Of a DNA stretch of 64,000 nucleotides, positions 7,896-56,121 are shown in pieces (the first letter of the stretch is position 1; each line of letters starts with the position of its first letter). Location: positions 289,974,001-290,038,000 of the forward strand of contig OZ024741.1 of assembly GCA_964016885.1 (NCBI GenBank), written 5' to 3'. The translations under genes were made by a program, and so were the position numbers. Under the pieces are notes generated by a model. It was given only the letters and a program-made list of their open reading frames with translations, made no database searches and was not told the origin of the DNA. The stretch comes from Eledone cirrhosa. Its lineage: Eukaryota.

Positions 7896-7933
7896 CCTTT
7901 ACCGGTTTCGCAGTTCTTCTGCTTTTCAAAAGG
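7896..7933 (-). ncRNA. Hammerhead U3-A8 variant (inverted copy)
   Basis: Reverse complement of 8009-8046. Confidence 0.7.
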
Positions 7934-8008
7934 TGAGTTGAGATGGAGGGTCTGTGGTTTTTCTCACATCTGATGTGAGAAAAACCATAGACCCTCCATC
8001 TCAACTCA

Positions 8009-8046
8009 CCTTTTGAAAAGCAGAAGAACTGCGAAACCGGTAAAGG
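8009..8046 (+). ncRNA. Hammerhead U3-A8 variant
   Basis: CCUU-UUGAAAA-GCAG(AAGAA)CUGC-GAAA-CCG-GUA-AAGG; palindromic stem III ACCGGU; C3-G8 replaced by U3-A8. Confidence 0.75.
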
Positions 8047-8701
8047 AACCAAATAAATATATATATTTAAAAAAAAAATAAGACTCCAGTTGCATTTTCG
8101 ATTTCATCTCTTTTTCTTTATACTTTCACTCGTGTAGGACACCACGGTTATTTTTCATTTTGTAACAAAAACCTCACTTTCTAATATATATATATATATA
8201 TATATATATATATATATGTGTGTGTGTGTGTGTGTGTGTGTGTGTAAGAGTGTATATATATATATATATATATATATATATATATATATATATACATATA
8301 TATATATATATGTATATATATATATATGTATATGTATGTATATATACATATATATAGATATAGATGTATATATGTATATGTATATATATATATATATATA
8401 TATATATATATATATATATATACACATATATATATGTACATACATATACATATATACATGTATATATATATGTATATAAATATATATATATATATATATA
8501 TATACACATATATATATGTACATACATATACATATATACATGTATATATATATGTATATAAATATATATATATATATATATATATATATATATATATATA
8601 TATATATATATATATATATATATATATATACACCACCTTCACCACTAGTTGTTTTGACAGATGTCTTCAACCCATTGATACCAAACATTATTTGGTCAGT
8701 A

Positions 8702-8892
8702 GGGCGGTGGATTGGCAGTATCGGTAGAGGGTCGGAGGCCATGCTTCGCAGCATAGAGTTACGGCCCTTTATGATCTGAGTTCAATTCCCGCCGAGGTTA
8801 ACTTTGCCTTTCATTCTTACGAGGTCGATAAAATAAAGTACCAGTAATGCACTGGGATAATTGGTGGCCTTGTGCCAAATGTAGAAACAATT
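8702..8892 (+). mobile_element. tRNA-derived SINE family A with TSD
   Basis: A-box TGGCAGTATCGGTAG, B-box GAGTTCAATTCCC; TSD ATTATTTGGTCAGTAG on both sides. Confidence 0.9.
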
Positions 8893-9323
8893 ATTTGGTC
8901 AGTAGTTCATGGGTACGTGTAAGTATATATATATATATATATATATGTATATATGTGTATATATATATATATTTATATATATATATCTATATATATATGT
9001 ATATATATATATATATGTATATGTATATATATATATATATATATATATTTGATCGCTATCATGTATTTTGTTTAAAATGCTTTATTATATTTAATAAGAT
9101 ACTCAACGAATTATGTAGTGTTACTTTCAGTGTAGATTGTCTCTAGTTCTATGTTTTGATATGTCTTAGTGCACACTTAACTGTGTATGAATATATTTCA
9201 ATCACTTTCTTATAATGATTAGGGCTCGATTTTATTCTCTGAATTTTATCTTGAGCTGTTTTTAGAGACGAGATTTATGTTTGATGTTGACTCATTCATG
9301 ACACCCTTTACTTTGAAAGTAAT

Positions 9324-9511
9324 AATAATTGTTTCTACTTTTTGGCACAAGGCCAACAAAATACCCAGTACATTACTGTTACTTTATTTTATCGACCCCG
9401 TAAGGATGAAAGGCAAAGTTAACCTCGACGGGATTTGAACTCAGACCGTAAAGGGACGTAACTATGCTGGAAAGCATGGCGTCCGACCCTCTACTGATAC
9501 TGCCAATTCAC
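9324..9511 (-). mobile_element. SINE family A
   Basis: Reverse complement of the family consensus. Confidence 0.85.
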
Positions 9512-9563
9512 AATGATTTCATTTATTAGCCTCAAGGGCCGACCGTAAGTAATAATAATAATA

Positions 9564-9653
9564 ATAATTGTTTCTACTTTTGGCACAAGGCCAGCAAAAA
9601 CATCAGTATATTACTGGTACTTTATTTTATCGACTCCGTAAGGATGAAAGGCA
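9564..9653 (-). mobile_element. SINE family A, 3' half
   Basis: TTGTTTCTACTTTTGGCACAAGGCC..GGATGAAAGGC, cut by (TA)n. Confidence 0.8.
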
Positions 9654-52388: not shown

Positions 52389-52527
52389 TTAAGGATTCGA
52401 TTTGCACTTGTAGTGCGAAAACTTTTCTTTGAGTCTATGGTTACAATAAATTGATCTTTCGATTTTATTGTTGAGTAACTTATTCTTCGAACTCAAAATG
52501 TGGAACAGCTCAAGGTCACATAATCGA
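52389..52527 (-). pseudogene. PLE GIY-YIG C-terminus (not in ORF track)
   Basis: RLCDLELFHILSSKNKLLNNKIERSIYCNHRLKEKFSHYKCKSNP*, aligning to the end of the 48280-48726 ORF. Confidence 0.8.
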
Positions 52528-52841
52528 TTATGTGACCTTGTCGATTATGTGACCTCTCTATACTATTCCGTTTGTCCCCTCACTTTCTAATTCCTCTTCC
52601 TCTCTCTCTATACTAGTAAATACAATTTAAAAAAAAATGTTTTTCTCTATATATTAAGAACTATTTCAAGAGTAACTTACTCACTATTTTGAACATTTGG
52701 ACGTGAACAACAATTATCATTGAGTGGCTGTTATTTGCAGTATAGCAATATAAGGTTGCACTTACCAATGAACCGGTCGTAAATACCTGGATAAAATCCT
52801 TCTCTTAATGCTTACCTGTGTTTTCTCTTTTATACTATATA

Positions 52842-53061
52842 CACATCTGATGTGAGAAAAACCACAGACCCTCCATCTCAACTCTACTTTTAAAAAGCAG
52901 AAGAACTGCGAAACCGGTAAAGGAACCAAATAAATATATATATTTTTAAAAAAAATAAGACTCCAGTTGCATTTTCGATTTCATCTCTTTTTCTTTATAC
53001 TTTCACTCGTGTAGGACACCTCGGTTATTTTTCAATTTGTAAAAAAAATCTCACTTTCTAA
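52842..53061 (+). mobile_element. Copy of the 7826-8184 HHR element
   Basis: Near-identical; core mutated to UUAAAAA. Confidence 0.85.
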
Positions 53062-54334
53062 TATATATATATATATATATATATATATATACGATAAAGT
53101 ATGTCCATAGAATCATATATATATATATATATATATATATATATATATATATATATATATATATATATATATATATATATATATATATATATATATATAT
53201 ATAATATAAGATCAATAGATGGTTAAAAGAGTTCCAAGTATTTTATTATGCGCATTTCAAAAACAAATATCATCATGAGATGACATTTGCGTTTTCATCA
53301 GATAAAATAGGGATACATGATATGAAGGTTAAAAAACACTTGTGAATAGTGAAGTTTTAAATAAACATATGAAAAATAATTTAAGATTGATGTGTGATAT
53401 TGGGAAAAAGTGAGGGGATGGTTGGAAAGGGTGAAAAAGAGGAGGAGATGAGAGTAAAGAATGGTGGGGGAGGAGTATAATAAGGAAGGATGAGATAGGA
53501 GGAGAGATGGGTGATAGAGAGAGAGAGAGAGAGAGAGAGAGAGAGAGAGAGAGAGAGAGAGCCTTTACAACTGAGAAAAATATATATTGTTTCACAGAGA
53601 GAGGTTAAAAAGCCGTTGGAAGATAATATATAATTTAAACGAATTTGAAATTAAAAGTTGATGAAGAGAAAAATGGGCTTAAGAATAATATTAAATTAAG
53701 GTTTGTATATTGAAGGGTTTAATAAAATGTCCGATGAAAAGAAATTGTTAATATGTATTATTAAAATAAAAATATTAATGTTATTAAGGATATAATGTGA
53801 AAAGAAGTATCCGATATTTGCATTGCTTTATTGTACTACAATAAAACTCACCTCCTACATATATATATATATATATATATACATTTATCTTATTTTGTAC
53901 ATTTGCTTACTACGCGTGTTTGTTTATTTATTTTTATTTATTTTTATTTCGCATCGCTGTCAACTTAATAATTTTTTTATTCCCTTATTTTTTATTTTTT
54001 ATATTTGACTTTACTTTGATTTCATGTATATGTATTTTGTTTGTTTATTGATTTTTATTTATTCTTATAATTATATGTGTGTGTGTGAGTGTATATATAT
54101 ATATATATATATATATATATATATATATATATATGTTTATTCAGGTTTGAGGTTCACCACTGGATAGAGCTGGTCAATTCCGTATGGTCAATCTCAATGT
54201 AATAATATAGAGAGTACTCAACGTAAAGCAGTTCAACCGTCTTTGTTTTTGTAGTTGGTGGTGCTATTACGGAGTTAAATATTATAATGAAATGACAGGA
54301 GGCTGGATTTGTGTAAATCCTTGAAAGGTTTATT

Positions 54335-54392
54335 ATACTATGATCATTTCAATGACCAGGTTCCGTATGAATCCGGTGATATCATCAGGTAT
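54335..54392 (-). ncRNA. Type I hammerhead (left arm)
   Basis: Near reverse complement of 54454-54511. Confidence 0.7.
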
Positions 54393-54453
54393 TCGAAATA
54401 TAATAAGATAATGTAATAGGTTTTATCTATTACATTCACTTAATATATTTCGA

Positions 54454-54511
54454 ATACCTGATGATATCACCGGATTCATACGGAACCCGGTCATTGAAAT
54501 GATCATAGTAT
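54454..54511 (+). ncRNA. Type I hammerhead, U.U at stem II base
   Basis: AUAC-CUGAUGA-U-AU.ACCGG..CCGGU.AU-U-GAAA-UGAUC-AUA-GUAU; palindromic AUGAUCAU. Confidence 0.75.
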
Positions 54512-56083
54512 AATAAACCTTTCAAGGATTTACACAAATCCAGCCTCCTGTCATTTCATTATATATATATATATATATATATATATATGATAATAAGGGC
54601 GCTGCGGAGTTGCAAATGGGTTACATATGAAAAAAGTTTGTCCTTCATCAGTGATCTTCCAACTATCATAGGCATTTCATCGCTTTAAAGACCATATACC
54701 TCCGGTTGGTGCGAGCAACGGCTAAAAAAAGTCGCTGGGACACGTAAATAAAGGGGACGCGAGGGTAAACAACAAAATGGTGAGGCAACAGAAGTGAGGA
54801 AGAAGGAGACTAAATTCATAGAAATCTGGGACTTGTCTCCTTCTTCCTCACATTATTAAGATTGTCAACATATTTTTGAATAAACATATTTTCCTTATTT
54901 ATTCGCATTTGTTCTGTTGTATTGTTAGCGCAAAGGTAAAATGGGAAGACTTGGAATTTGGGTGTCTTATGCGAATAAATTTGGGTGTCTTATGCGAATA
55001 AATAAGGAAAATATGTTTATTCAAAAATATAGACCAACATTAAATAAGGTTTAATATACATTATGTCAACACCACAATATGACATACACACACACACATA
55101 ACACCTTCTACTTTAGAAAATAAAAACCCGAACTAAATAAACCTTAAACATACGTTTGCACTGGCAATACAATAGCAAACACGAAAAAGTCAGGAAAATA
55201 TGTTCATTCAAAAATATTCCTACTAAAGGAATCATTTTCCTACACACACACATACACACACACACAATATATATATATATATATATATATATTCTCTTCA
55301 TCTTAACATGCTAACCATACTCCCACACACATAACACCCATACACACACATAACAATCCCCACACCTACAACACCCTCCCCATTTCTACTAATAGAACCA
55401 CTTTCCTACACACATATATATATACACACACACAAAATATATATTCTCTCTATCTAACATACTCGCACACACACACATAACACACAACTCCCTCCCCCAT
55501 CTCTACTAATAGAATCATCTTCCAATACACACATACACACACACACACACACATATACACACACACAAGCACACAAATAAACACATATCTTCAGTCTCAA
55601 TAGAAAATCTGAACTCTGACACCTGAACTCTGACAGCTGGCAATATTCACTGAACCAGAACATTTCTCCCAATCCCTTTTCCCTTGACCACTATCTCTCC
55701 ATTGTCATAACATTCACTATAAAGACTACAGAATAGTTTTCCAAATAAGGGCGCAAAAATGTAATGAAAACTTGTTCACGTGACAGCCAAATTTCATTTA
55801 TAACCAACCAAAAAAAAGCCTTCGTGAGCCTCATTTTTTCAAGTAAAAAGAAATTCAAACACTCATATATGAAAAAACAACCTGTGACACCCCCCCCCCC
55901 CCCTCTCTTATTTGAAGAACTATTGTAACGCGAACTGGCGCGAAATTTATTATAATTATTGACAAACCAATCAAATTACTTCTCGAAAAACCTGGTTTTC
56001 GAGCCACTTTTTCCATATAAAACAAGTAACATTTAGAGACCAACCAGATGTGAGAAAAACCACAGACCCTCCATCTCAACTCA

Positions 56084-56121
56084 CCTTTTGAAAAGCAGAA
56101 GAACTGCGAAACCGGTAAAGG
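56084..56121 (+). ncRNA. Hammerhead U3-A8 variant
   Basis: Identical to 8009-8046. Confidence 0.75.

What the first reader, a model, noticed from the sequence alone, without database searches (positions are those of the whole stretch)
7896..56121. UUGAAAA (U3-A8) hammerhead cores in two independent families
Seen: UUGAAAA replaces CUGANGA at 8009, 7896 and 56084, and in the unrelated PLE UTR at 51721, each with proper stems and a GUA site. Known: C3-G8 is a tertiary Watson-Crick pair and U3-A8 is compensatory. Inference: the covariation argues for selected catalytic function.
Basis: partly seen in the sequence, partly recalled or inferred. Interest (0 to 1): 0.7.

Follow-up and report, generated by a model that had tools for sequence, protein, structure and literature searches.

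The report
U-A core hammerheads in Penelope elements
Two unrelated jumping-gene families in this animal genome carry a small, likely self-cutting RNA motif whose core C-G pair is replaced by U-A; that swap is already published, but here it has occurred repeatedly and always as a matched pair, which suggests the cutting-competent fold is under selection, though cutting is untested.

Summary
The motifs are real. They are type I hammerheads with a U3-A8 core in the 3' ends of Penelope-like retrotransposons (PLEs). The sites at 8009, 7896 and 56084 are one identical 38-base sequence (7896 is the inverted arm of the 8009 insertion), so they count once. Family A is a Neptune PLE. The motif at 51721 belongs to a Hydra-clade PLE (family B), independent of A in protein and UTR. 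The window shows no covariation. The genome does: a 1.2-Mb scan blind to positions 3 and 8 gave 59 C-G, 10 U-A and 2 other pairs of 71 hits (2.7 expected). No multi-copy family is fixed for U-G or C-A. A Hydra tree needs four C-G/U-A changes, and Neptune adds at least one. U3-A8 is published for PLE hammerheads (PMC4209133) and as a natural, in-vitro-active pair (PMC3088659); this scan has noted it in at least 8 genomes. Cleavage is untested, copy ends do not map to the cut site, and a U3-A17 mispair is predicted. Verdict: new members of a known kind, with a modestly new recurrence result.

The parts
8009..8046 (+). Family A (Neptune PLE) minimal type I hammerhead: stem I 8009-8012/8043-8046, U3-A8 core 8013-8019, stem II 8020-8032, palindromic stem III 8036-8041, predicted cut after 8042
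7896..7933 (-). Identical hammerhead in the inverted left arm of the same insertion
7826..8183 (.). Short family-A insertion between (TA)n tracts: inverted 5'-truncated arm (7826-7972) plus direct 3' end (7972-8183); a read-through RNA is predicted to fold into one long hairpin that hides the motif
   Evidence: MFE -238.7 kcal/mol for 7826-8125
56084..56121 (+). Identical family-A hammerhead, core 56088-56094
54992..56259 (+). 3' UTR / pLTR of family A that carries the 56084 motif
   Evidence: matches L011 and L015 over 54992-56300; ORF ends 1.0-1.1 kb upstream of the core in full copies
54849..54974 (-). Inverted remnant of the family-A endonuclease C-terminus
   Evidence: 88% to A ORF residues 734-775
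52886..52923 (+).
51721..51821 (-). Family B (Hydra-clade PLE) hammerhead: U3-A8 core 51817-51811, U-U at 10.1-11.1, 74-nt stem II insert, stem III ACGGUCGU, predicted cut after 51725
52392..52526 (-). C-terminal remnant of the family-B ORF, about 575 nt upstream of the core
   Evidence: 95% to B endonuclease residues 217-261
52685..52785 (+). Inverted second family-B copy with A8C and A15.1C (decayed)

Best explanation
These are the minimal type I hammerhead motifs in the 3' repeats of two unrelated Penelope-like retrotransposon families (a Neptune and a Hydra family), each fixed for a U3-A8 core pair, and they likely self-cleave slowly as dimers to process the element's tandem RNA. Shown: location downstream of the RT-endonuclease ORF, family-wide fixation of U3-A8, self-complementary stem III, and repeated paired switches between C3-G8 and U3-A8 among sister families. 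Inferred: two copies in a partial-tandem transcript pair through stem III, the 3-8 pair forms as in the active fold, and cleavage after GUA releases unit-length RNA for reverse transcription. The switch likely goes by two transitions through a transient U-G wobble in an AT-rich genome. The window copies themselves are truncated insertions and are probably inert.
For: Full family-A copies carry ORF1 plus an RT-CX4CxxC-GIY-YIG ORF, with the motif in both 5' and 3' repeats about 4.7 kb apart (L095, L096). Family B follows an RT-CxCX5C-GIY-YIG ORF fitting the Hydra description in PMC8557442. U3-A8 is in 109 of 110 A copies and 36 of 38 B copies examined. Pooled DNA contigs list no other letter at positions 3 or 8 (A, threshold 3%; B, threshold 1%). 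Strict scan blind to 3/8: 59 C-G, 10 U-A, 1 C-C, 1 U-G of 71; 2.7 in shuffles. Of 41 clusters with two or more copies: 28 C-G, 9 U-A, 0 U-G, 0 C-A, 4 other. Hydra tree: at least 4 changes, forced by well-supported branches; one U-A clade rejected, p-AU 2e-49. B's nearest relatives (L218, family 20) share its long stem II architecture but have C3-G8. The C3-G8 pair is seen in the tertiary-stabilised structure and not in minimal-form crystals (PMC3884650). U3-A8 ribozymes were reported active in vitro (PMC3088659). The family-A dimer folds with an intermolecular ACCGGU helix.
Against: No cleavage was measured. Copy ends do not cluster at the cut site: in family A, 2 of 110 alignments have a 5' end in the bin at the site and 1 has a 3' end at +10, while hot spots lie at -70/-80, +80 and +170. 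The predicted fold extends stem I by a U3-A17 pair (-6.4 versus -4.7 kcal/mol), analogous to the inhibitory C3-G17 trap of PMC3884650, and in 110-nt context the core is sequestered in another hairpin. A Neptune relative (L336 family, U3-A8 in 11 of 11) has a poorly paired stem I, and a Hydra family is fixed for U4A (38 of 46 copies), so deviant cores can amplify. Metazoan PLE hammerheads showed low activity even as dimers (PMC4209133), and Naiad PLEs spread without canonical hammerheads (PMC8557442). Copies from similarity searches are the best 40 candidates per search and so favour intact cores.
Confidence: 0.75

Rival explanations
1. The 3-8 pair is kept for a folded structure that the element's RT/endonuclease or a host factor recognises, with little or no cleavage in vivo.
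For: No copy ends at the cut site and predicted misfolds. A U4A-fixed family and a family with weak stem I still amplified. [quoted passage not shown]
Against: The compensated pair is the one specific to the active-site conformation. The other core bases and NUH sites are kept in nearly all families. Self-complementary stem III is kept through different sequences (ACCGGU, ACGGUCGU, ACAAUUGU).
Confidence: 0.17
2. U3-A8 arose once and spread between families by exchange of 3' repeats, so the recurrences are not independent.
For: A and B share a few short flanking words (best a 14-nt match, E 0.011). PLE insertions often abut each other, as at 52842. ORF-to-motif links are by adjacency in partly broken copies.
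Against: Each U-A motif resembles its C-G sister family in stems and flanks more than it resembles other U-A motifs: family 29 with family 11 (same GAAACGAUCGUA, about 100-nt stem II) and B with family 20 and L218. N7 differs among U-A families (A, U, C, G).
Confidence: 0.05
3. AT-biased mutation alone turned C3 and G8 into U and A in motifs no longer under selection.
For: The window is 32.6% G+C, both changes are transitions, and A and B also have A7.
Against: Drift would fix U-G and C-A at least as often as U-A; none of 41 multi-copy clusters is fixed for either. G5 and G12 are kept. The one U3-G8 lead proved to be a decayed C3-G8 family (15 of 20 copies C-G).
Confidence: 0.03

Closest known systems
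U3-A8 minimal hammerheads of Cercyon PLEs, Schistosoma mansoni (Cervera and De la Pena 2014, PMC4209133; parts 1-2 of 4 of the text read)
   Same: Type I topology, 4-bp stem I, position in PLE repeats, U3-A8 in place of C3-G8, mostly truncated dispersed copies, opposite-strand pairs, predicted dimer action.
   Different: Here the variant sits in Neptune- and Hydra-type elements and in a 319-bp tandem repeat, with a palindromic stem III. Family B has a 74-nt stem II insert and U-U at 10.1-11.1. The passages read do not report repeated switches on a phylogeny.
Natural hammerhead core variants (Perreault et al. 2011, PMC3088659; passages read)
   Same: Natural C3-G8 to U3-A8 covariation, described as active in vitro; a U10.1-U11.1 start of stem II is also reported.
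   Different: Those passages do not concern PLE repeats.
Hydra and Neptune clades of PLEs (Craig et al. 2021, PMC8557442; passages read)
   Same: C-terminal GIY-YIG; CX2-5CxxC and CCHH in A; CxCX5C without CCHH in B; (TA)n targets; inverted 5'-truncated arms; hammerheads present.
   Different: The passages describe canonical hammerheads in Hydra; their supplementary file S2 was not opened and may list U3-A8 cases.
Non-LTR retrozymes (PMC7229834 and bioRxiv 10.64898/2026.07.22.740005; search listings, plus passages of the preprint)
   Same: Short non-coding repeats with a hammerhead derived from PLE repeats; the 319-bp U3-A8 family D in this genome fits.
   Different: Families A and B have protein-coding parents, with apparently intact ORFs in A.

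Membership tests
Type I hammerhead ribozyme | Core N3 U4 G5 A6 N7 N8 A9 ... G12 A13 A14 with a Watson-Crick 3-8 pair | tested here: met
   UUGAAAA...GAA in both families; U3-A8 is an accepted natural pair
Type I hammerhead ribozyme | A15.1-U16.1 pair and NUH cleavage triplet | tested here: met
   GUA in A and B; U3-A17 mispairing is predicted as a competing state
Type I hammerhead ribozyme | Helices I and II closing the junction | tested here: met
   A: 4 bp and 4 bp. B: 4 A-U bp, and a stem II that starts with U-U followed in most copies by UUGG/CCAA. U10.1-U11.1 is a described variant
Type I hammerhead ribozyme | Site-specific self-cleavage | not testable with these tools
   No assay; copy ends give no footprint
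Minimal dimer-type PLE hammerhead | Very short palindromic stem III | tested here: met
   ACCGGU duplex -8.3 and ACGGUCGU duplex -5.8 kcal/mol
Minimal dimer-type PLE hammerhead | Located in the repeats flanking a PLE ORF, in sense orientation | tested here: met
   Motif upstream and downstream of the ORF in L095, L096 (A) and L097 (B)
Minimal dimer-type PLE hammerhead | Extra unpaired base between A9 and G10.1, and G10.1-C11.1 (common traits) | tested here: inconclusive
   A has G10.1-C11.1 without the extra base; B has U-U instead
Neptune clade PLE (family A) | RT with DKG motif, CX2-5CxxC linker, C-terminal GIY-YIG with CCHH | tested here: met
   Read by eye in the L092 ORF against PMC8557442; no tree with named reference elements was built
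Hydra clade PLE (family B) | CxCX5C linker, no CCHH in the endonuclease, late CxxC and CxH motifs | tested here: met
   Read by eye in L097/L098 ORFs against PMC8557442
Hydra clade PLE (family B) | N-terminal RWK and DKT motifs; placement in a tree with reference Hydra elements | not tested
   The N-terminus was not recovered and no reference sequences were at hand

The most novel reading that the evidence does not exclude
Within one animal genome the active-site 3-8 pair of PLE hammerheads has flipped between C-G and U-A at least five times independently and never settled on a mismatch. This is a natural compensatory-mutation experiment showing that these weak minimal hammerheads reach the catalytic fold in vivo and that retrotransposition depends on it. 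The same genome offers matched C-G/U-A sister pairs, and a high-copy U4A core, for direct testing.
Probability: 0.55. Interest if true: 0.5.

Novelty: new member of a known kind. Interest (0 to 1): 0.3.

Why it matters
The variant is known, so the window finding alone is ordinary. Whether PLE hammerheads cleave in vivo is stated as unclear in PMC8557442 and PMC4209133. Repeated paired switches among sister families are indirect evidence that the active fold is selected, and the sister pairs (B versus family 20; family 29 versus 11) are ready test material. Practically, searches fixed on CUGANGA would miss about one in seven strict hammerhead hits in this genome (10 of 71).

Tried and rejected
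Rfam scan of the window: no hammerhead family among the 150 of 436 matches listed, which were mostly microsatellite-driven miRNA models. Pfam found no family for 5 PLE ORF fragments, so clades were read from motifs. RNA evidence: no RNA holder listed; the runs laid were contigs of unrecorded kind. The idea that A and B share a UTR was rejected. A possible U3-G8 family (L165) was a decayed C3-G8 family. A U-A copy in family 3 was an alignment register artefact. Of the 9 U-A clusters, two look false (a one-locus tandem satellite and a poly-U/A tract) and one (cluster 35) was not verified; the 4 non-paired clusters look like false hits of the loose descriptor (19.4 of 140 expected by chance) but were not checked one by one. 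Window pieces of family E hold no core. No Neptune tree was built: the C-G relative L202 gives only 68 residues. The primary biochemical papers (PMC1986816, PMC5785218, PMC4447102) are not held; a search for C3U/G8A rescue found none.
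Full report
Observation. The heptamer TTGAAAA lies at 8013 (+), 7929 (-), 56088 (+) and 51817 (-). The first three sit in one 38-base motif that is identical at all three places: stem I CCUU/AAGG, core UUGAAAA, stem II GCAG/CUGC, then GAAACCGGUA. The 7896 copy is the inverted left arm of the insertion at 7826-8183, and a transcript through both arms is predicted to form a single long hairpin. The 51721 motif has stem I UAUU/AAUA, a U-U mismatch at 10.1-11.1, a 74-nt stem II insert and GAAACGGUCGUA. So the window gives two data points, not four, and no covariation on its own.

What carries the motifs. The genome is a 3.0-Gb animal assembly. Family A gave 447 and 1,960 first-look candidates with two queries and family B 1,581; only the best 40 per search were scored. 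Full A copies have ORF1 and a 775-residue RT-endonuclease frame with a CX4CxxC linker and a CCHH-type GIY-YIG, and the motif lies 1.0-1.1 kb after the stop and again 1.3 kb before the ORF. This fits the Neptune clade as described in PMC8557442 (passages read). B copies follow an ORF with a CxCX5C linker and no CCHH, about 580 nt upstream of the core, which fits the Hydra clade. The two proteins are about 24% identical over 146 RT columns and the UTRs have no significant match. Clade names rest on motifs read by eye, not on a tree with reference elements.

Within families. U3-A8 is fixed: 109 of 110 distinct A copies and 36 of 38 B copies. Pooled contigs list no other letter at either position. 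Single changes occur in scattered copies of many families (for example 7 U-G among 301 copies of C-G families, and 3 C-A and 2 U-G among 250 copies of U-A clusters). This is expected of dead copies and neither supports nor refutes selection.

Between families. I fetched 120 stretches of 10 kb at arbitrary round positions and scanned them with a descriptor blind to positions 3 and 8. The strict scan gave 71 hits: 59 C-G, 10 U-A, 1 C-C, 1 U-G, against 2.7 in shuffled sequence. A loose scan gave 140 hits, 97 C-G, 29 U-A and 14 other, against 19.4 by chance. Of 55 clusters over all loci, 41 had two or more distinct copies: 28 C-G, 9 U-A, 4 other, none U-G or C-A. Six of the 9 U-A clusters are well formed (A, B, families 15, 16, 29 and the 319-bp tandem family D); two look false and one is unverified. 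Two more U3-A8 families were found by eye behind Neptune ORFs related to A (L335 family 9 of 9; L336 family 11 of 11, but with a poorly paired stem I), while another Neptune-type family has C3-G8 (5 of 5).

Phylogeny. A tree of Hydra-type proteins (18 rows; 4 short rows of 22 were dropped; LG+G4) needs at least 4 changes between C-G and U-A, forced by well-supported branches, in all 200 bootstrap trees; holding the U-A rows together is rejected (p-AU 2e-49); the label is not clustered more than in shuffles (82 of 500 as low). B groups with L218 and family 20, family 29 with family 11, and family 16 with the U4A family. Limits: rows are pieced from broken copies; cores are tied to ORFs by adjacency; family 15's sister is unresolved; row L331 carries its family's majority label although its own two motif copies read C3-A8; the root is not known, so gains and losses cannot be told apart. 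With the Neptune difference this makes at least five paired changes.

Mechanism. The C3-G8 pair appears in the tertiary-stabilised structure and not in crystals of minimal forms (PMC3884650, passages read), and the G8 2'-OH is considered the general acid (PMC2920678, passages read). Compensation at this pair therefore points to selection on the active fold. Stem III cannot close as a monomer hairpin but pairs between two copies, as proposed for PLE hammerheads (PMC4209133; PMC6765202, passages read). The likely role is slow dimer cleavage of partial-tandem transcripts. This step is inferred. Against it: copy ends avoid the cut site, the predicted fold adds a U3-A17 pair to stem I and can bury the core in an alternative hairpin, U3 families do not avoid A17, a U4A core is fixed in 38 of 46 copies of an abundant family, and measured activity of metazoan PLE hammerheads is low.

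Comparison and novelty. U3-A8 was reported in Schistosoma Cercyon PLEs with about 1,300 hits (PMC4209133), and as natural covariation already active in vitro (PMC3088659). Earlier notes of this scan record it in at least 8 genomes, including another piece of this one (looked up after the analysis). I did not see repeated switching on a PLE phylogeny in the listings or passages of searches, but key papers were not held and supplements were not opened, so that is not a claim of absence. Verdict: new members of a known kind; interest 0.3.

Noticed in passing
L108:8230-8340 region; also L125, L205, L200, L208, L218: An abundant Hydra-type family is fixed for the core CAGAAGA (U4A; 38 of 46 distinct copies) with intact stems I-III and C3-G8. 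One search listed no paper with hammerhead and U4A among the 15 of 43 shown.
   Followed up: partly
window 58467-58580 (+), behind the PLE ORF at 56562-58087; family 22 (L158, L192): U4C cores (CCGAUGA in 3 of 3 copies; CCGA in 3 of 4 copies of family 22). U4C is a described natural variant.
   Followed up: partly
L127:6000-6300 (-); G000 C2 208.903-208.908 Mb: A 319-bp non-coding repeat with a UUGAUAA (U3-A8) hammerhead, dispersed and in a tandem array of about 15 units; retrozyme-like; 38 of 38 copies U3-A8.
   Followed up: partly
window 5476-6446 and 61461-63991: Two tandem repeats (312-bp and 466-bp units) each with a CUGAUGA core on the minus strand; retrozyme-like.
   Followed up: no
window 30634 (-), 31710 (+), 31961 (+), 47552 (-), 53301 (-), 16762 and 16981 (+): Further C3-G8 hammerheads from other repeat families.
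   Followed up: partly
family A copies, window equivalent 56045-56050: 43 of 110 family-A alignments begin 70-80 nt upstream of the predicted cut site, often at an inversion junction with a variable spacer; inverted arms end near +80 and direct arms near +170. This may mark a defined RNA 5' end; the first query began at that place, which may inflate the count.
   Followed up: partly
window 8685-8897 and more than 10 other places: An approximately 200-bp dispersed repeat with many copies in the window; not characterised.
   Followed up: no
window 45259-45657 (-): A reverse-transcriptase fragment of a different, non-PLE type (Pfam RVT_1).
   Followed up: no
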